Source of the DNA: a virus
Lineage: Duplodnaviria > Heunggongvirae > Uroviricota > Caudoviricetes
Direction: 5' to 3' (one strand)
Virus record (IMG/VR): IMGVR_UViG_2850784384_000008
Length of the DNA stretch: 25,073 nt
Made by a program: the position numbers and the translations under genes. The notes under the pieces were generated by a model. That model was not told the origin of the DNA, did not search any database, and saw only the letters and a list, made by a program, of their open reading frames with translations. This document shows positions 2,177 to 11,049 of the stretch, piece by piece. Position 1 is the stretch's first letter; every line of letters begins with the position of its first letter.

Positions 2177-2305
2177 CAGGTCAGTCCATCACAGTGGGCT
2201 GCGATTGGTGTGCTGGGAAGTCTGCTTCTGGGGCTTCTGACTTATCTGACGAATCTGTATTTCAAAATAAGAGAAGATAAGCGTAAGGCTGCGAGAGGTG
2301 AATAA
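2177..2305 (+). pseudogene. holin 3' fragment (last 42 codons; EssD / S21-like class), 5' end replaced by IS600-like copy A
   Basis: In-frame translation from the IS boundary reads [42 protein letters not shown], stop TAA at 2303-2305 overlapping the lysozyme ATG (TAATG); matches DLP12-type holin C-terminus from memory. Confidence 0.7.
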
Positions 2306-2598
2306 TGTCGCCATCATTACGCAAGGCTGTTGCAGTTGCTATTGGTGGCGGGGCTGTTGCTATAGCATCTGTGTTAATCACTGGCCCAGGTGGTAACGAT
2401 GGTCTGGAAGGTGTCAGCTACATACCATACAAAGATATCATTGGTGTATGGACTGTATGTCACGGACACACCGGAAAAGACATCATGCCTGGTAAAACGT
2501 ATACCGAAGCAGAATGCAAAGCTCTCCTGAATAAAGACCTTGTCACTGTCGCCAGACAAATTAACCCGTACATCAAAGTCGATATACCGGAAACAACG
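2305..2598 (+). pseudogene. phage lysozyme (SAR-endolysin, RrrD / P21 R-like), truncated after codon 98 by IS66-family insertion
   Basis: [28 protein letters not shown]...[13 protein letters not shown] then the reading frame runs into the IS66-type end GTAAGCG at 2599; N-terminal hydrophobic SAR-like segment. Confidence 0.85.
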
Positions 2599-2680
2599 GT
2601 AAGCGCCCCATCAGCGACGTCTTGTGAAAATTGTCCTGTCTGGCAACAATCGCGCCCATCTATATTGATGGACACGAACG

Positions 2681-3355
2681 ATGAATTCCCAGACAACAAA
2701 AGATATTCCCTGCTTCCGTTCTTATTTGCCTGATGCCCTGCGTTTAAGATTTGAAGATAAACTGACCATCCGGGCCATCGCTCAGCGTCTGGGTCTCAGT
2801 CATTCCACAATACATACGCTTTTTCAGCGATTTCTTGCATCCGGTATCGCATGGCCATTGCCCGATTCAGTTTCATTCGCTCAACTTGACGCCATCCTTT
2901 ATGCCAACAGAAAGAAGGAATTAACAGAGCCTCAAATCAGAGAAGGCTCATGGCGAAAAGAACGGCGAACCAGCTATAGCCGTGAATTTAAGGTCCGTCT
3001 GGCTAAGCAGGCATTACAGCCTGGGGCTGTTGTTGCCCGGATCGCCAGAGAACACGATATCAATAATAACCTGCTGTTTAAATGGAAAAGCCAGTACGAG
3101 GACGGCTTACTGAGCGATGATGACATACAGGAATGCATGCCTGTCCCGGTGGCACTGACTGATACGCCGGAGCCGACCAGACCAGTTACAAATCCCTTCT
3201 GGCGTAACAAGCATGATGAGCGCCCTGAGGGGGCTCCCGGAAACGTCCCACGGTGCGAGCTGCATCTTAAATCAGGTGTGGTAAAACTGTTTGACCCTCT
3301 CACTCCGGAACTGTTACGGGCGCTAATCCGCGAAATGAAAGGGGGTATCCGATGA
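2681..3355 (+). CDS. IS66-family TnpA-like protein (HTH) with an N-terminal extension of about 85 aa
   Basis: C-terminal part ...[45 protein letters not shown] resembles IS66 orf1; the N-terminal part ([24 protein letters not shown]...) I could not place. Confidence 0.55.
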
Positions 3356-3702
3356 TAACGCTGCCGACCGGTACCAAAATCTGGATCATCGCTGGCATCA
3401 CAGATATGCGTTGTGGCTTCAATGGCCTGGCTTCGAAGGTGCAGAACACGCTGAAAGATGACCCGTTCTCCGGGCATATCTTCGTCTTCCGGGGCCGCAG
3501 TGGCAAAATGGTGAAAATACTGTGGGCCGATCGTGACGGGTTATGCCTGTTCACCAAACGTCTGGCCGGTGACCCGGGAAGGGAAAGTGCACCTGACGCC
3601 AGCTCAGTTATCCATGCTACTGGAGGGGATCGCGTGGCAACATCCCAAACGGACAGAACGGCCTGGCATCCGGATATAACCCGTGATAAAACAAGGGAAT
3701 GA
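3352..3702 (+). pseudogene. IS66-family TnpB (orf2), frameshifted near its 3' end
   Basis: [72 protein letters not shown] then the conserved continuation (…GKVHLTPAQLSMLLEGIAWQHPKRTERPGIRI) is found in the -1 frame from about 3575. Confidence 0.65.
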
Positions 3703-4365
3703 ACAATGAACTCCCCGATGATATTGAGCTGCTTAAAGCCATGTTGCGTAAGCAACAGAGTCGGCTTCGACAGTATGCCTGTCAGGTCGCGGGCTATGAG
3801 CAGGAAATTGAACGGCTGAAAGCGCAACTCGACAGGTTGCGTCGTATGTTGTTCGGCCAGAGTTCAGAGAAAAAGCGTCATAAGCTTGAAAATCAGATCC
3901 GACAGGCAGAAATCTTCTGGAAGATGCATCGTCAGTCACAGATTCACCTGACACCAGTCCCCCGTCAGAAAACCCGATCGCCAGTAAGCCTGAATCCCCG
4001 GGACGAAAATCTTCACGAAAACCGCTGCCGGCAGAACTTCCCCGGGAGACACATCGCCTTCTGCCTGCTGAAACCAGTTGCCCGGCCTGTGGAGGTGTTC
4101 TGAAAGAAATGGGGGAAACAATCTCAGAGCAACTGGATATCATTAATACCGCCTTTAAAGTTATCGAAACCATACGTCCCAAACTGGCCTGTAGCCGGTG
4201 TGATGTCATCGTTCAGGCACCACTTCCTCCTAAACCGATCGAACGCGGTTATGCCAGTGCAGGGTTACTTGCACGGATCCTGGTCAGCAAATATATGGAA
4301 CATATCCCTTTATATCGCCAGTCAGAAATATACGCGCGACAGGGCGTGGAGCTGAGCCGTAATAC
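3699..4365 (+). pseudogene. IS66-family transposase TnpC, 5' portion (frameshifted between 4103 and 4109), interrupted at 4365 by IS600-like copy B
   Basis: Coiled-coil N-terminus (LPDDIELLKAMLRKQQ...LKAQLDRLRRMLFGQSSEKK) then ...GETISEQLDIINTAFKVIETIRPKLACSRCDVIVQAPLPPKPIERGYASAGLLARILVSKYMEHIPLYRQSEIYARQGVELSRNT in a different frame. Confidence 0.65.
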
Positions 4366-4429
4366 TGAGGTAGCCTGAGTTTAACGGACACTCCTTCCTG
4401 AAATAGAATGGCATCAGAAGGAGCTAATA

Positions 4430-4732
4430 ATGAGCAGAAAAACCCAACGTTACTCTAAAGAGTTCAAAGCCGAAGCTGTCAGAACGGTTCTTGAAAATCA
4501 ACTTTCGATCAGTGAAGGCGCTTCCCGATTATCCCTTCCTGAAGGCACTTTAGGACAATGGGTTACCGCCGCCAGAAAAGGGCTCGGTACTCCTGGTTCC
4601 CGCACGCTGGCTGAACTGGAATCTGAAATTCTGCAACTGCGTAAGGCGTTAAATGAAGCTCGCCTTGAGCGAGATATATTAAAAAAAGCAACAGCGTATT
4701 TTGCACAGGAGTCGCTGAAAAATACGCGTTAA
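4430..4732 (+). CDS. IS3-family transposase OrfA
   Basis: 100-aa ORF with good RBS (AAGGAG 8 nt upstream); ends just after an A7G run at 4681-4688. Confidence 0.85.
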   Translation: MSRKTQRYSKEFKAEAVRTVLENQLSISEGASRLSLPEGTLGQWVTAARKGLGTPGSRTLAELESEILQLRKALNEARLERDILKKATAYFAQESLKNTR

Positions 4733-4767
4733 TCGAACAATGGCGACAACAATTTCCCATTGAAGCG

Positions 4768-5586
4768 ATGTGTCAGGTATTTGGTGTATCCAGGAGCGGT
4801 TATTACAACTGGGTACAGCATGAACCCTCAGACAGAAAACAAAGTGATGAGCGGCTAAAACTGGAGATTAAGGTGGCACATATCCGCACTCGCGAAACAT
4901 ATGGAACCCGGCGGCTCCAGACGGAGCTGGCAGAGAATGGCATCATCGTTGGTCGTGACCGACTGGCACGTCTTCATAAGGAGCTAAGGCTACGCTGTAA
5001 GCAGAAACGCAAGTTCAGAGCGACTACGAACCCGAACCACAATCTGCCAGTTGCGCCAAATCTGCTGAACCAGACGTTCGCTCCTACAGCACCAAATCAG
5101 GTCTGGGTGGCGGACCTGACGTATGTTGCCACACAGGAGGGATGGTTGTACCTCGCTGGCATCAAAGATGTTTATACGTGCGAAATTGTCGGCTACGCCA
5201 TGGGAGAGCGCATGACAAAAGAGCTGACAGGTAAAGCCCTGTTTATGGCGCTCAGGAGCCAGCGCCCACCTGCCGGGCTAATCCACCACTCTGATCGAGG
5301 TTCACAGTACTGCGCATACGATTACCGGGTCATACAGGAGCAGTCTGGTCTGAAAACATCAATGTCGCGTAAAGGTAACTGTTACGACAACGCTCCGATG
5401 GAAAGCTTCTGGGGAACGCTGAAAAATGAGAGCCTGAGCCACTATCGTTTTAATAACCGGGATGAAGCCATCTCAGTAATACGGGAATACATTGAGATTT
5501 TCTACAATCGTCAGCGTCGTCACTCTCGTCTGGGGAATATCTCCCCGGCAGCCTTCAGGGAAAAATATCATCAGATGACTGCTTAA
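4768..5586 (+). CDS. IS3-family transposase OrfB (DDE domain), presumably made as OrfAB by -1 frameshifting
   Basis: 272-aa ORF with DDE-type motifs (…WVADLTYV…, …HSDRGSQY…, …[10 protein letters not shown]…). Confidence 0.85.
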
Positions 5587-5629
5587 AAAAAGAACAAATG
5601 GTAGTGTCCGCTATTGCCAGTACACCTCA

Positions 5630-6033
5630 TACCATGGTGCGCTGGGTATCAGAAATGGCAGACAAACTCCGTCCTCTGTATATAGCGCTGAATGACTATG
5701 TTCTGGAGGCAGGAAAGGTGCACGCAGATGACACTCCGGTGAAAGTACTGGCCCCGGGGAACGGAAAGACGAAAACGGGTCGTCTGTGGGTATACGTCAG
5801 GGATGATCGTAATGCGGGTTCATCCCTGCCGGCAGCCGTCTGGTTCGCGTATTCGGCAGATCGCAAAGGAGAACATCCGCAGCTCCACCTGGCAAAGTAT
5901 CAGGGCGTACTGCAGGCTGATGCCTATGCAGGTTATAACGTACTGTACGAAACGGGCCGGGTGAAGGAAGCCGGGTGCCTGGCCCACGCCCGCCGAAAAA
6001 TCCATGACAAGGATGTGCGCCGTCCGACAGAAA
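5630..6033 (+). pseudogene. IS66-family transposase TnpC, middle portion, ended by IS911 copy 1
   Basis: …[73 protein letters not shown]… typical of the IS66 transposase core; reading frame runs into the IS911 terminal repeat at 6034. Confidence 0.7.
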
Positions 6034-6105
6034 TGAAGTGGCACACTGAATTTGGCCACCTGAACAGAGGTGATATGCTCACCTCAGAACAACACAGGTG
6101 CTCCA

Positions 6106-7274
<1,169 letters not shown>

Positions 7275-7282
7275 CCACTTCA

Positions 7283-7528
7283 AAAGCTGAAAATGATGCT
7301 CTTCGGCGCAAGCTTGATAATGGTGGTCGGGTGCTCGTCAAAGGAAAATGCCCTGTGCCATCCTCAGCCGAAACCTCCAGCGCCTCCGGCATGGGCAATG
7401 ATGCCACCGTCGAACTCTCTCCAGTTGCTGGACGAAACGTTCTCGGTATCCGGGACGGAATCATCAGCGACCAGACAGCATTGAGAATGCTTCAGGAGTA
7501 CATCAGGATCCAATGCCTTGGGGGGTAG
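7283..7528 (+). pseudogene. Rz (i-spanin) 3' fragment, 5' part missing at the IS911 junction
   Basis: Frame reads KAENDALRRKLDNGGRVLVKGKCPVPSSAE… directly from the IS boundary; resembles the lambda Rz C-terminal half from memory. Confidence 0.7.
7293..7484 (+). CDS. Rz1-like outer-membrane lipoprotein (o-spanin), embedded in the +1 frame of Rz
   Basis: 63 aa MMLFGASLIMVVGCSSKENALCHPQPKPPAPPAWAMMPP…: signal peptide with lipobox VVGC and proline-rich stretch, fully nested within the Rz frame as in lambda Rz/Rz1. Confidence 0.7.
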   Translation: MMLFGASLIMVVGCSSKENALCHPQPKPPAPPAWAMMPPSNSLQLLDETFSVSGTESSATRQH

Positions 7529-7616
7529 CGGTAATTTTACTCATTATCCTTCAAATCAGATTCTGTTGTCAGAGGAATGGGGGAAGCTGGATTCGCAAGA
7601 GCTTTTTATGGGCAGT

Positions 7617-8126
7617 TTAGCTAAAAAAAGGCAACACGAAGCTAAAACTACCAACATAAAGTGCTGACCAGCTAGCAGCTGAAATCAGACTCACTGTATA
7701 CACTTTCACTGGATGAAGTTGCAACATTCCTGCCACCAAAGGAGCAATGTAACGCAGCACGGCGATAAAGCGCGAAGTGAAAAGTATTGACACAGAGTTA
7801 TTTTGCAACTGAAGGCGAACCCGTTCTATTGTATTGGAACGGCTCGATATTATACATGCAAGTTGAGGGATATGCCCAATTATTATACCAAGATGGTAAT
7901 TAACGATAGTACCGCACCATGCGCCACTCATGACCGTGATTCCAGCTTCCCATGGTGAAAGAGTCGTCTTGCTGACTGTAATTACAGTGGCCATCATAAT
8001 TGATGCTGGTGGCAATATCGCCGAAATGAGTAAAGTGGATTTTGTGAACGCTATTATAAAAAGAAGCCCCCATAGGCGATATGGATGAAGTACAAAATAG
8101 TTCATCAAAGCATTTATCCACTCCAT
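7617..8126 (-). CDS. DedA/YqaA-family (COG1238-like) small inner-membrane protein; candidate prophage moron
   Basis: 169 aa, four hydrophobic segments, motif …SILFTSRFIAVLRYIAPLVAGMLQL… resembling the DedA/YqaA signature; RBS AGGAAAG 7 nt upstream of ATG at 8126 (TTG alternative at 8129); opposite strand to the flanking phage genes. Confidence 0.55.
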   Translation of the reverse strand: MEWINALMNYFVLHPYRLWGLLFIIAFTKSTLLISAILPPASIMMATVITVSKTTLSPWEAGITVMSGAWCGTIVNYHLGIIIGHIPQLACIISSRSNTIERVRLQLQNNSVSILFTSRFIAVLRYIAPLVAGMLQLHPVKVYTVSLISAASWSALYVGSFSFVLPFFS

Positions 8127-8323
8127 CAATGTCTTTCCTTCTGTGAATTTTTCTTTGCTATTTAACCGTGATACGACTTAATTTAGGCTTAAACACCTTA
8201 CATTTACAAGGTACTCCTGTGGGGGGCCCTGCCACGGAGCGTCGCAGGAGTGAGTGATGAGGAAGAATTAAAGCAACCTATTGTGACAGGCAGCGATAAC
8301 AGTAAATCACAGGAAGCATAATC

Positions 8324-9019
8324 ATGGCAAAACCGGACTGGGAGGCCATCGAATCGGCATACCGGGCCGGAGTCCTTAGCCTCCGTGATATAGGCGAGAA
8401 ATACGGCGTTACAGAAGGGGCTATCAGGAAGAGGGCCAAAAAGCTTGATTGGGCACGCAGTGGCGGTACGCAGGTTTGCAAAAATGGTACGCAAAAAAGG
8501 AAAGTGCGTACCAGCAGAAAGCCTGCCATTACTGGCCTTACACAAAAAAGTACGCAACTAAAAACAGAATCTACACCGGATACGAAACCGATACGCGGAA
8601 TGCGTACCGATCCCCCGACTAACCCATTCCAACCCGGTAACCAGCAGGCATTAAAACACGGTGGTTATGCCCGTCGCCTTCTGCTCAAAGATGAGGTGAT
8701 AGAGGACGCTAAAGCGTTGACGCTCGAGGACGAATTATTTCGCCTTCGTGCTAACAACCTTGTCGCTGCAGAGAATATTGGTCGGTGGTTGGTGTCGCTG
8801 GAAGATGCTAATGGGGACCAGGAAAGGAAGATGCTGATTGAAAATATCAGCGCCGCCGAGAAAGCAATGATGCGCAATACAGTTCGTATTGAGTCCATCG
8901 TTGGCACGCTTGCGACGGTAGGAAAAATATTTGCTGATACAGCCTACCGCAAGGCCGCCACTGATAAGGTGTCTCTGGAGGCTGATCGTCTTCGCCGTGA
9001 TGCAGGTATTGATGATTGA
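8324..9019 (+). CDS. terminase small subunit, 3'-truncated by IS911 copy 2 (stop codon supplied by the IS end)
   Basis: N-terminal HTH (LSLRDIGEKYGVTEGAIRKRAKKLDW), NPFQPGNQQALKHGGY motif; RBS AGGAAG upstream; lies directly upstream of terL; the displaced last 23 codons are found at 10269-10340. Confidence 0.65.
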   Translation: MAKPDWEAIESAYRAGVLSLRDIGEKYGVTEGAIRKRAKKLDWARSGGTQVCKNGTQKRKVRTSRKPAITGLTQKSTQLKTESTPDTKPIRGMRTDPPTNPFQPGNQQALKHGGYARRLLLKDEVIEDAKALTLEDELFRLRANNLVAAENIGRWLVSLEDANGDQERKMLIENISAAEKAMMRNTVRIESIVGTLATVGKIFADTAYRKAATDKVSLEADRLRRDAGIDD

Positions 9020-9024
9020 AGTGG

Positions 9025-10193
<1,169 letters not shown>

Positions 10194-11049
10194 TGGAGCA
10201 CCTGTGTTGTTCTGAGGTGAGCATATCACCTCTGTTCAGGTGGCCAAATTCAGTGTGCCACTTCAGATGGCAATGGAGAGCGTGACCTCAATGACTTCTA
10301 CTCTGACATCCAAACCGACGCTGAATCCGGCTTTACGTAGTTTCTGGACTATGCGGGCACGTAACAAAGTGCTTTATGGTGGTCGGTCATCGTCAAAATC
10401 ATGGGATGCCGCTGGCATTGCCATATTTCTGTCGAATAAATACACCCTGCGTTTTTGTTGTGCCCGTCAGATCCAGAATAAAATCGAAGAGTCGGTGTAT
10501 ACCCTGCTCAAAATTCAGATAGACAGGTTTGGTCTGCGGCACCGTTTCCGTATTCTGAACAACAAAATCATTAACCGGGTTACTGGCTCGGAATTTGTTT
10601 TTTATGGATTATGGCGCAACATCGAAGAAATTAAGTCACTGGAGGGGATCGATATGTTGTGGCTGGAAGAAGCCCACGCACTGACGGAATACCAGTGGAA
10701 AATTCTGGAGCCAACGATCCGTAAAGAGGGTTCGGAATGCTGGTTCATATTCAACCCCGGACTTGTTACTGATTTCGTCTGGCGCAACTTCGTTGTTGAT
10801 CCGCCCGAAGGCACTCTCATCCGCAAAATTAACTATGACGAAAATCCGTTTCTGTCTGACACCATGCTTAAGGTTATCGACGCGGCGCGACGCCGTGATC
10901 CGGATGGTTTTAAACATGTGTATGAGGGCGTTCCGGAGTCTGATGATGATGCGGCAATTAGACTGGCCCCCTGAATCTCCAGACAACCAGTATCACTTAA
11001 ATAAGTGATAGTCTTAATACTAGTTTTTAGACTAGTCATTGGAGAACAG

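What the first reader, a model, noticed from the sequence alone, without database searches (positions are those of the whole stretch)
7529..8323. DedA/YqaA-like membrane protein gene in the bor-type moron slot between lysis and packaging genes
The only intact non-IS, non-structural gene in the prophage remnant lies antisense between Rz/Rz1 and terS, the position where lambda carries the lysogenic-conversion gene bor. It has a good RBS and four hydrophobic segments with a DedA/YqaA-like signature. DedA-superfamily proteins act in envelope homeostasis, so a phage-borne copy could change host membrane properties. It has survived in an otherwise heavily decayed region.
Basis: partly seen in the sequence, partly recalled or inferred. 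Interest (0 to 1): 0.5.

Follow-up and report, generated by a model that had tools for sequence, protein, structure and literature searches.

The report
Prophage-borne atypical DedA membrane protein gene
A decayed Shigella/E. coli prophage carries, in the slot where phage lambda keeps its bor gene, an intact extra gene for an unusual DedA-type inner-membrane lipid transporter that most related prophages lack; it is a plausible but untested envelope-modifying gene.

Summary
An intact 169-aa ORF (7617-8126, minus strand) lies between an Rz/Rz1 remnant and terS, antisense to both. It matches Pfam VTT/DedA above the curated cut-off.

It is a moron-type insertion:
- Related prophages have about 57 bp between Rz and terS. 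Here there are 795 bp, and they are AT-richer than the flanks.
- Only 6 of 5,426 complete E. coli genomes carry it.
- A 78%-identical copy sits antisense at the end of the lysis genes of an unrelated Citrobacter youngae prophage.
- No close homologue exists in 50,697 deposited phage genomes.

It is not YqaA-like. It belongs to the YabI/DedA/YqjA clade (COG0586), in a small Enterobacterales-only subfamily of short proteins. These keep both substrate-binding arginines but replace the two acidic residues (YqjA E39, D51) with invariant Lys and Ala.

Chromosomal orthologues lie next to Mg2+ transporter genes. A roughly 75-bp upstream block travels with the gene. PhoP/PmrA-box resemblance there is not above background.

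Best reading: a lysogen-expressed accessory lipid flippase, possibly not proton-coupled. Function is inferred. RefSeq already names it a DedA family protein. Interest is moderate.

The parts
7617..8126 (-). DedA-family (VTT domain) CDS, 169 aa. ATG at 8124-8126, stop TAA at 7617-7619. An alternative TTG start lies one codon upstream at 8129.
   Evidence: ORF list. PF09335 52.4 bits against a cut-off of 33.9. Full-length homologues. RefSeq annotates the identical gene as 'DedA family protein' WP_011069285.1.
8133..8140 (-). Ribosome-binding site AAGGAAAG, 6 nt upstream of the ATG.
   Evidence: Read directly from the sequence.
8160..8165 (-). Putative -10 hexamer TTAAAT, conserved in all Citrobacter and phage copies. 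Prediction only.
   Evidence: Upstream alignments. It fell below the threshold of the generic promoter scan.
8177..8195 (-). Direct repeat TGTTTAAG-CCTAA-ATTAAG in the -35 position. It looks like an OmpR/PhoB-type binding site, but the regulator is unknown.
   Evidence: Conserved block. Motif scores. The background control shows such scores are common.
7605..8197 (.). Core cassette shared with the Citrobacter copies: about 71 bp upstream, the ORF, and about 12 bp downstream.
   Evidence: DNA alignment of the window, the C. youngae prophage and the C. meridianamericanus chromosome. Similarity starts and stops at these limits.
7529..8323 (.). Whole segment present here but absent from DedA-less relatives of this prophage. 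Those have about 57 bp between the Rz stop and the terS ATG.
   Evidence: Alignment with E. coli 2024CK-00474. GC is 0.37-0.43 here against 0.50-0.56 in the flanks. The outer parts 7529-7604 and 8198-8316 have no match in phages.
7284..7528 (+). Rz i-spanin, C-terminal fragment. Its N-terminus was removed at the IS911 junction.
   Evidence: phrog_13, profile positions 77-153 of 154. IS boundary.
7293..7484 (+). Rz1 o-spanin, 63 aa, apparently intact and embedded in the Rz frame.
   Evidence: phrog_3198, positions 6-67 of 68.
8324..9015 (+). Terminase small subunit gene, interrupted near its 3' end by IS911.
   Evidence: phrog_370, positions 1-254 of 284. Intact 765-nt version in FDAARGOS_943. 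IS boundary.
6034..7283 (+). IS911 copy bounding the island on the left.
   Evidence: 1250-nt inverted repeat, 100% complementary. Annotated as IS911 family in E. coli.
9016..10265 (-). Second, identical IS911 copy in inverted orientation, bounding the island on the right.

Best explanation
The gene is an intact moron cassette: a promoter region plus one ORF. It sits at the distal end of the lysis module of a lambdoid prophage, antisense to the late operon, in the position that bor occupies in lambda.

It encodes a short inner-membrane protein of the DedA superfamily, from the COG0586 clade nearest to YabI, DedA and YqjA. The protein keeps the two arginines of the second re-entrant helix, which in this clade are thought to bind the phosphate head group of undecaprenyl phosphate or another anionic lipid. 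It has lost both acidic residues of the first re-entrant helix, which are thought to carry the proton. Lys stands in place of YqjA E39 and Ala in place of D51.

I infer three things:
- The gene is transcribed from its own promoter in the lysogen.
- The protein acts as an accessory flippase or scramblase for an anionic lipid. Undecaprenyl phosphate is the leading candidate substrate.
- Transport may be independent of the proton-motive force, with the Lys amine occupying the former proton site.

This would help the host envelope keep up with lipid-carrier recycling during envelope remodelling, such as lipid A or O-antigen modification and low-Mg2+ stress.

Shown here: the family, the subfamily residues, the cassette limits, the presence/absence pattern, and purifying selection. 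Inferred: expression, substrate, coupling and benefit to the lysogen.
For: Family.
- PF09335 scores above its cut-off.
- The subfamily profile scores 44-61 bits on YabI, DedA, YqjA, YohD and YghB. It scores 12 bits or less on YdjX, YdjZ and YqaA.

Residues.
- K29 and A41 are invariant, and R119 and R125 are kept, in 20 subfamily members.
- Among the 150 best cluster representatives, the position of K29 is E or D in 130. It is K only in the 15 subfamily members.
- The roles of these residues are taken from PMC10127716 and the 2026 YqjA preprint.

Structure. The AlphaFold2 model (pLDDT 79.7) has helix-break-helix segments at 15-52 and 111-134.

Moron status.
- The gene is absent from otherwise homologous prophages.
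- It is present in 6 of 5,426 E. coli genomes.
- It is AT-richer than its flanks.
- The same cassette lies antisense among the lysis genes of an unrelated C. youngae prophage with a different endolysin and terminase.
- In E. coli RMDEC465 it has a different packaging module on its right side.
- An upstream block is conserved although dS is saturated.

Selection and spread.
- dN/dS is 0.15-0.24 against the Citrobacter copies.
- The identical protein is seen on at least 1000 contigs.

Envelope and Mg2+ link. Chromosomal orthologues lie next to MgtE-domain or CorA genes.
Against: - No expression or phenotype data exist.
- E39 and D51 are essential in YqjA. YqjA D51A fails to complement, so by that standard this protein might not transport at all.
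- NCBIfam equivalog scores for DedA and UptA are far below their cut-offs: 31 against 236 bits, and 19.9 against 250 bits.
- No terminator was found, and the promoter is only a prediction.
- The Shigella/E. coli copy has one extra base between the repeat halves compared with Citrobacter. It also has Cys at a position that is Arg in at least 90% of the subfamily. Either change could mean weakened function.
- The PhoP/PmrA-box resemblance is not above background.
Confidence: 0.5

Rival explanations
1. Neutral passenger or decaying relic. The cassette was picked up from a Citrobacter- or Kosakonia-like chromosome. It persists in Shigella only because it is short and lies in a stretch that IS elements happened to miss. 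It does nothing useful for the phage or the host.
For: - The surrounding prophage is heavily decayed, with IS911, IS2, IS600 and IS66 insertions.
- The ORF is only 510 bp.
- It is rare in E. coli, at 6 of 5,426 genomes.
- The window copy has an altered repeat spacing upstream and R91C at a near-invariant position.
- dN/dS against the closest homologue, 0.24, is the highest of the pairs compared.
Against: - The identical protein is found on at least 1000 contigs across S. flexneri, S. sonnei, S. dysenteriae and E. coli.
- There is only one synonymous difference from the E. coli copy.
- All subfamily-invariant residues are retained.
- The same cassette was kept in a second, unrelated prophage.
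Confidence: 0.2
2. Superinfection exclusion or receptor modification. The inner-membrane protein protects the lysogen from other phages. It would do so either by blocking DNA entry or by shifting the flux of undecaprenyl-linked glycans (O-antigen, ECA) that serve as phage receptors.
For: - Small inner-membrane proteins expressed from the prophage are a common form of exclusion gene (general knowledge).
- The position and antisense orientation fit lysogen expression.
- DedA proteins affect undecaprenyl-phosphate supply.
Against: - There is no match to any PADLOC defence model.
- Orthologues are ordinary chromosomal genes in Enterobacter, Hafnia, Morganella, Arsenophonus and Kosakonia, with no phage context.
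- The conserved transporter motifs argue for a housekeeping-type activity.
Confidence: 0.1
3. Lysis accessory. As a membrane protein next to the holin, endolysin and spanin genes, it modulates lysis timing or membrane integrity during the lytic cycle.
For: It is adjacent to Rz/Rz1 here. It lies between two Rz-like ORFs in the C. youngae prophage.
Against: - It is antisense to the late operon, so late transcription would oppose it.
- It brings its own conserved upstream block.
- Most relatives of the prophage lyse without it.
- Orthologues occur in chromosomes far from any lysis genes.
Confidence: 0.05

Closest known systems
E. coli YabI, DedA, YqjA and YghB (COG0586 DedA proteins)
   Same: - VTT/DedA domain.
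- Best profile scores: 60.8, 58.7, 57.8 and 43.7 bits.
- The motif R-F-x-x-x-x-R of the second re-entrant helix is kept (R119, R125).
- The serine equivalent to YqjA S52 is kept (S42).
- Like YabI, it lacks the D51 aspartate.
   Different: - 169 aa against 219-254 aa. The C-terminal transmembrane part is missing.
- E39 is replaced by an invariant lysine, and the 'PG' motif by 'PP'.
- It scores far below the NCBIfam equivalog cut-off.
- It is carried on a prophage rather than being a core gene.
Undecaprenyl-phosphate flippases of the DedA family (B. subtilis UptA, V. cholerae YghB, P. aeruginosa PA4029)
   Same: Same clade, and the same pair of arginines proposed to bind the phosphate. There is a weak hit to the NCBIfam UptA models.
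   Different: The UptA model scores 19.9 bits against a cut-off of 250. The acidic residues linked to proton coupling are absent. No activity data exist.
Phage lambda bor (lysogenic-conversion lipoprotein)
   Same: Same genomic slot and orientation: after Rz/Rz1, before the packaging genes, antisense to the late operon (general knowledge of the lambda map). It shows the same presence/absence pattern typical of morons.
   Different: There is no sequence or structural relation. Bor is a small outer-membrane lipoprotein, whereas this is a polytopic inner-membrane transporter-like protein.
DedA proteins needed for polymyxin resistance (K. pneumoniae DkcA, B. thailandensis DbcA)
   Same: Same superfamily and clade. 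They offer a possible link to lipid A modification that uses undecaprenyl phosphate (titles and abstracts).
   Different: Those are chromosomal, full-length and have the acidic residues. No resistance phenotype is known for this gene.
Giant-virus 'SNARE-associated Golgi' (DedA/VTT) proteins
   Same: They are the only viral structures resembling the model: best BFVD hit, E 0.64, TM 0.45.
   Different: They are of the eukaryote-type subfamily in eukaryotic viruses, and the match is not significant. No bacteriophage protein in BFVD resembles the model.

Membership tests
DedA superfamily (Pfam PF09335, VTT domain) | Sequence match to the family profile above the curated gathering score. | tested here: met
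   52.4 bits against a cut-off of 33.9, E 9.2e-14, covering profile positions 3-121 of 123.
DedA superfamily (Pfam PF09335, VTT domain) | Core of two re-entrant helix hairpins plus transmembrane helices. | tested here: inconclusive
   The AlphaFold2 model (pLDDT 79.7, pTM 0.74) has helix-break-helix segments at 15-52 and 111-134 and long helices at 58-84 and 139-168. No solved DedA structure was found to compare with. The AFDB library was unavailable.
COG0586 subfamily (YqjA/YghB/UptA type, proposed undecaprenyl-phosphate flippases) | Closer to COG0586 members than to COG0398 or COG1238 members. | tested here: met
   Subfamily HMM scores: YabI 60.8, DedA 58.7, YqjA 57.8, YohD 44.5, YghB 43.7 bits. 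By contrast: YdjX 11.6, YqaA 8.7, YdjZ -1.3.
COG0586 subfamily (YqjA/YghB/UptA type, proposed undecaprenyl-phosphate flippases) | [quoted passage not shown] | tested here: met
   R119 and R125 align with them and are invariant in the subfamily.
COG0586 subfamily (YqjA/YghB/UptA type, proposed undecaprenyl-phosphate flippases) | [quoted passage not shown] | tested here: not met
   K29 and A41 occupy these columns and are invariant in 20 subfamily members. E or D is found at the first column in 130 of the 150 nearest cluster representatives.
COG0586 subfamily (YqjA/YghB/UptA type, proposed undecaprenyl-phosphate flippases) | Flippase activity, shown by complementation or by sensitivity to amphomycin or MX2401. 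| not testable with these tools
   Needs experiments.
NCBIfam equivalogs PRK10847 (DedA family protein) and UptA | Score above the curated equivalog cut-off. | tested here: not met
   31 against 236 bits. 19.9 against 250 bits. 16.3 against 300 bits.
   8.7 bits on YqaA. Both arginines are present. The definition is from PMC10127716.
Phage moron (lysogenic-conversion cassette) | Present in some and absent from other otherwise homologous phage genomes, at a module junction. | tested here: met
   It sits at a second, unrelated prophage's lysis end.
Phage moron (lysogenic-conversion cassette) | Base composition different from the flanking phage genes. | tested here: met
   GC 0.37-0.43 against 0.50-0.56.
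Phage moron (lysogenic-conversion cassette) | Own promoter and terminator, giving transcription independent of the phage operons. | tested here: inconclusive
   Antisense orientation and a conserved 71-bp upstream block with a -10-like TTAAAT. No consensus promoter was called there and no terminator was found.
Phage moron (lysogenic-conversion cassette) | Expressed in the lysogen and changes the host phenotype. | not testable with these tools
   No paper mentioning the gene was found.
PhoP or PmrA regulon | PhoP box (T/G)GTTTA-N5-(T/G)GTTTA, or PmrA box, overlapping the -35 region. | tested here: inconclusive
   - Window copy: 9/12 for the PhoP box (hand count; it falls below the 10/12 reporting threshold of the scan) and 11/12 for the PmrA box.
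- C. youngae copy: 10/12 for PhoP.
- E. asburiae orthologue: 12/12 for PhoP.
- Matches of 10/12 or better occur in 12% of random 300-nt windows, and four other lineages have none.

The most novel reading that the evidence does not exclude
The 'K-for-E' short DedA proteins are a distinct functional class. They would be flippases or scramblases for an anionic lipid carrier that are not proton-coupled. They would belong to the low-Mg2+ envelope response of Enterobacterales, as suggested by the MgtE/CorA neighbours and the perfect PhoP box in Enterobacter. Lambdoid phages would have captured one as a lysogenic-conversion gene that raises tolerance of Shigella and Citrobacter to cationic peptides or Mg2+ limitation.
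Probability: 0.12. Interest if true: 0.65.

Novelty: new variant of a known kind. Interest (0 to 1): 0.4.

Why it matters
DedA proteins are among the last widespread bacterial membrane protein families whose substrates and coupling mechanism are still being worked out. The current model assigns proton binding to two acidic residues and phosphate binding to two arginines.

This subfamily is a natural experiment on that model. It is under purifying selection. It keeps the arginines and replaces the key glutamate with lysine.

If the protein flips undecaprenyl phosphate, it would be the first phage-carried lipid-carrier recycler. It would also add an envelope-homeostasis function to the list of lysogenic-conversion genes in Shigella. 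If it is inert, the case is an ordinary annotated accessory gene.

Tried and rejected
- YqaA-like classification: rejected on profile scores and on the arginine pattern.
- Anti-phage defence gene: no PADLOC hit.
- RNA element in the 795-bp interval: only a chance-level snoRNA hit, E 0.51.
- Intrinsic terminators on either side: none found. The GC-rich inverted repeat at 8212-8252 and the 3' flank fold no better than shuffled sequence.
- Regulation by PhoP or PmrA: I first thought the direct repeat was a significant box. A background count showed matches of 10/12 or better in 12% of 300-nt windows, and no box in Hafnia, Morganella, bta3-1 or Arsenophonus. It is kept only as a lead.
- First structure model from 20 sequences: too poor to use, pLDDT 54.5. 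It was redone with 60 sequences.
- Fold searches: nothing significant in PDB or BFVD. afdb50 was not available.
- Solved structures by sequence: none found.
- Literature searches for a phage-borne DedA or for this protein accession found nothing relevant. The hits for 'DedA' with 'prophage' or 'moron' were place names or the author name Morona.
- The S. flexneri phoPQ microarray lists SF0551 and SF0572 as differentially expressed. I could not map these locus tags to this gene.
- Origin of the outer parts of the insert (7529-7604 and 8198-8316): no match in phage records.

Full report
**What is there**

The interval 7529-8323 is exactly the gap between the stop codon of an Rz spanin remnant and the ATG of the small terminase gene. 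Inside it lies one ORF on the minus strand, 7617-8129 from a TTG. An ATG one codon in, at 8126, gives 169 aa. AAGGAAAG lies 6 nt upstream of that ATG.

- The left neighbour matches the C-terminal half of phrog_13 'Rz-like spanin', with an intact embedded Rz1.
- The right neighbour matches phrog_370 'terminase small subunit' and is cut at 9016 by IS911.

The rest of the window is a badly decayed prophage:
- an integrase at the window edge;
- a lysozyme fragment;
- nested IS66-family, IS600 and IS911 elements;
- a terminase large subunit split by IS2;
- the portal-to-capsid genes.

Beyond these come a Mu-like transposase and repressor remnant, and the chromosomal genes dcuC and pagP. The window matches a Shigella flexneri chromosome at 100% protein identity (L047).

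**Family**

- The protein matches Pfam PF09335 (VTT/DedA) at 52.4 bits, against a cut-off of 33.9.
- RefSeq already annotates the identical gene in E. coli as 'DedA family protein' WP_011069285.1.
- NCBIfam equivalog models for DedA and UptA are hit only weakly: 31 against 236 bits, and 19.9 against 250 bits.
- I fetched the eight DedA paralogues of E. coli K-12 and scored a profile of the gene's own subfamily against them. YabI scored 60.8, DedA 58.7, YqjA 57.8, YohD 44.5 and YghB 43.7 bits. YdjX scored 11.6, YqaA 8.7 and YdjZ -1.3.

The protein therefore belongs to the COG0586 clade, not to the YqaA (COG1238) group.

**An atypical subfamily**

Todor et al. (PMC10127716) define COG0586 by two features:
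[quoted passage not shown] In the alignment with the K-12 paralogues:
- the arginines are kept, as R119 and R125 in 'SRFIAVLRY';
- E39 aligns with K29 and D51 with A41.

Both replacements are invariant in 20 subfamily members, in the motif 'KST...S...PPAS'.

Among the 150 best representatives from a search of 1.84 billion cluster representatives, the first acidic column is E or D in 130. It is K only in the 15 subfamily members. The second column is mostly A, T, S or V, as in YabI.

A 2026 preprint reports that YqjA D51A, R136A and S52C fail to complement. The serine is kept here, as S42.

The proteins are also about 50 residues shorter than YqjA and lack the C-terminal membrane segment.

A profile search found about 50 clusters scoring 150 bits or more, followed by a drop to 91 bits or less. 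A scan of one genome per species found 64 loci. All named taxa are Enterobacterales: Shigella/E. coli, Citrobacter, Kosakonia, Lelliottia, Enterobacter, Hafnia, Morganella and Arsenophonus.

**Structure**

- With 20 sequences AlphaFold2 gave a poor model, pLDDT 54.5.
- With 60 sequences it gave pLDDT 79.7 and pTM 0.74. That model has helix-break-helix segments at 15-52 and 111-134 and long helices at 58-84 and 139-168. This agrees with the DedA core and with four hydrophobic segments.
- No solved structure resembles it.
- In the viral structure library the best match, itself not significant, is a giant-virus 'SNARE associated Golgi protein'. No phage protein resembles it.

**It is a moron**

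- Related E. coli prophages have homologous Rz and terS genes separated by about 57 bp with no gene between them. Here the gap is 795 bp.
- GC content is 0.37-0.43 in the insert, against 0.50-0.56 in the flanks.
- Only 6 of 5,426 complete E. coli genomes carry the gene, all at 99.4% identity or better and all after the same lysis genes.
- In FDAARGOS_943 the prophage is far more complete and carries the gene in the same place.
- In RMDEC465 the packaging module to its right is a different one, so the cassette sits at a mosaic junction.
- A 78%-identical copy lies in a different lambdoid prophage of Citrobacter youngae. That prophage has a GH19 endolysin, a DUF1441 small terminase and a GpA-type large terminase. 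The copy is again antisense, between two Rz-like ORFs.
- DNA similarity between the window, that prophage and the chromosomal Citrobacter copies starts about 71 bp upstream of the ATG and ends about 12 bp after the stop. That defines the mobile unit.
- IMG/VR holds 16 loci: 14 of the Shigella type, one of the C. youngae type, and one dinI-DedA pair next to a Mu-like prophage end.
- None of 50,697 deposited phage genomes has a close homologue. The nine weak hits are 24-30% identical. Seven of the nine carry no feature annotation or are a bacterial draft contig filed in the phage set.

**Chromosomal relatives**

- Other members of the 57-78% clade are chromosomal.
  - In C. freundii and C. meridianamericanus the gene follows dinI, near icd and the ars genes and close to a Lom/Ail gene. 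This looks like a prophage remnant.
  - In C. amalonaticus and Kosakonia no phage genes are nearby.
- More distant orthologues lie beside Mg2+ transporter genes:
  - an MgtE-domain gene in about 27 Enterobacter/Lelliottia species and in several Arsenophonus;
  - the same gene 2.6 kb away in Hafnia and in strain bta3-1;
  - CorA in eight Morganella loci.

Part of this pattern may simply be inherited gene order, so I treat it as a lead.

**Promoter and regulation**

The conserved upstream block contains a direct repeat with an 11-bp period, followed by 11-12 nt and then TTAAAT.

The motif scores are:
- In the C. youngae copy the repeat scores 10/12 against the PhoP box.
- The window copy has one extra base between the half-sites. 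By hand count it scores 9/12 for the PhoP box, which is below the scan's reporting threshold. It scores 11/12 for the PmrA box.
- The E. asburiae orthologue has a perfect 12/12 PhoP box, in the intergenic region it shares with the MgtE-like gene.

A control weakened this reading. Matches of 10/12 or better occur in 12% of 300-nt windows of the fetched loci. Hafnia, Morganella, bta3-1 and Arsenophonus have none. Only the perfect box stands out, and it may serve the neighbouring gene.

What remains is a phylogenetic footprint. The block is conserved between copies whose synonymous sites are saturated, with dS up to 1.8. No terminator was found.

**Integrity and selection**

- dN/dS against the Citrobacter copies is 0.15-0.24. 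The E. coli copy differs by one synonymous change.
- The exact protein occurs on at least 1000 contigs, named from S. flexneri, S. sonnei, S. dysenteriae and E. coli.
- The window copy differs from the subfamily consensus at a few near-invariant positions. The notable one is Cys for Arg at residue 91.
- In this window the gene lies on a 1,732-bp island between two identical, inverted IS911 copies.

**Mechanism**

The best-supported reading is a lysogen-expressed accessory DedA protein that moves an anionic lipid across the inner membrane. Undecaprenyl phosphate is the leading candidate, because the arginine pair is intact and the clade is COG0586.

Replacing the proton-binding glutamate with lysine suggests transport that is not proton-coupled. 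This rests on an analogy from general knowledge of other transporter families, where a basic side chain takes the place of the coupling ion. It is inference only.

The rival readings are:
- a neutral relic;
- a superinfection-exclusion or receptor-modifying function;
- a lysis accessory.

The last two are weakened by the ordinary chromosomal orthologues, by the absence of defence-model hits and by the antisense orientation.

**Novelty**

The gene is already annotated, and DedA proteins and morons are both well known. I found none of the following described:
- the charge-reversed short subfamily;
- its carriage as a cassette at the lysis end of two unrelated lambdoid prophages;
- its chromosomal association with Mg2+ transporters.

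I rate it a new variant of a known kind, of moderate interest.

Noticed in passing
window 6034-7283 and 9016-10265: Two 1,250-bp IS911 copies, 100% identical and in inverted orientation, bracket the 1,732-bp Rz'-Rz1-DedA-terS' island. This is a composite-transposon-like or invertible arrangement. The right copy is a simple insertion in terS. The left copy abuts an IS66-family fragment, so the Rz 5' end and the lysozyme 3' end have been deleted.
   Followed up: partly
window 19294-20928 (-) and 21311-21820 (+); compare L043 3179-6101: There is a Mu-like prophage remnant: a MuA-type transposase of 544 aa and a repressor-like protein with a Mu DNA-binding domain. In IMG/VR locus L043 a 73% DedA homologue, preceded by dinI, lies directly beside the repressor end of a Mu-like prophage. 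This may be coincidence.
   Followed up: partly
L025 (E. asburiae) about 6897-6950; also L016, L012, L044, L045, L046, L055-L110: Chromosomal orthologues of the gene lie next to Mg2+ transporter genes: an MgtE-domain gene in Enterobacter, Lelliottia, Hafnia and Arsenophonus, and CorA in Morganella. The E. asburiae intergenic region has a perfect PhoP box, TGTTTAAGAACGGTTTA, followed by two overlapping weaker ones.
   Followed up: partly
window 24442-24476: Upstream of pagP there is a PhoP-box-like repeat, TATTAA-GGTTA-TGTTAA, followed by 12 nt and TATGCT. This is the same layout as the repeat upstream of the DedA gene. I did not check it against published pagP promoter mapping.
   Followed up: no
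window 2305-6125: The phage lysozyme gene is truncated (142-aa ORF, Phage_lysozyme profile positions 3-70 of 125) by an IS66-family element. That element is itself interrupted by an IS3-family element (4430-5586). Everything between the integrase (1-771) and the lysis genes of the prophage is missing.
   Followed up: no
L010 = NZ_CP056259.1 (C. freundii 'plasmid' pRHBSTW-00902_4), 27515-46021: This 82-kb record, filed as a plasmid, carries core chromosomal genes: icd, rluE, mnmA, hflD, purB and phoPQ. The dinI-DedA pair lies beside icd, a known lambdoid attachment site, and there are Lom/Ail and ars genes nearby. It looks like a chromosome segment or an excised island rather than a plasmid.
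   Followed up: no
L003 7291-9005 (C. youngae prophage): The DedA cassette lies between two ORFs that both match 'Rz-like spanin' PHROGs (89 aa and 161 aa). The cassette may therefore have landed inside the spanin region rather than after it.
   Followed up: partly
L027 (E. coli RMDEC465) 7579-8118: A relative of the prophage carries an Acb1-family anti-CBASS gene directly after its large terminase gene. It also has a 182-aa antisense hypothetical ORF between the DedA gene and terS.
   Followed up: no
window 7854-7856 (codon 91 of the DedA gene): The Shigella/E. coli copy has Cys where at least 90% of subfamily members have Arg. It also has conservative changes at three other near-invariant positions (V43I, L45M, A64T).
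   Followed up: partly
L052/L054 (Kosakonia) 6656-7639: In Kosakonia the 72%-identical chromosomal orthologue is followed by an L,D-transpeptidase (YkuD) gene. It has a different, extended -10-type upstream region and not the direct repeat.
   Followed up: no
PMC5775216, Table 4: In the S. flexneri 301 phoPQ-mutant microarray, SF0551 and SF0572 are differentially expressed. By their numbering these locus tags may lie near this region. I could not map them to the window.
   Followed up: partly
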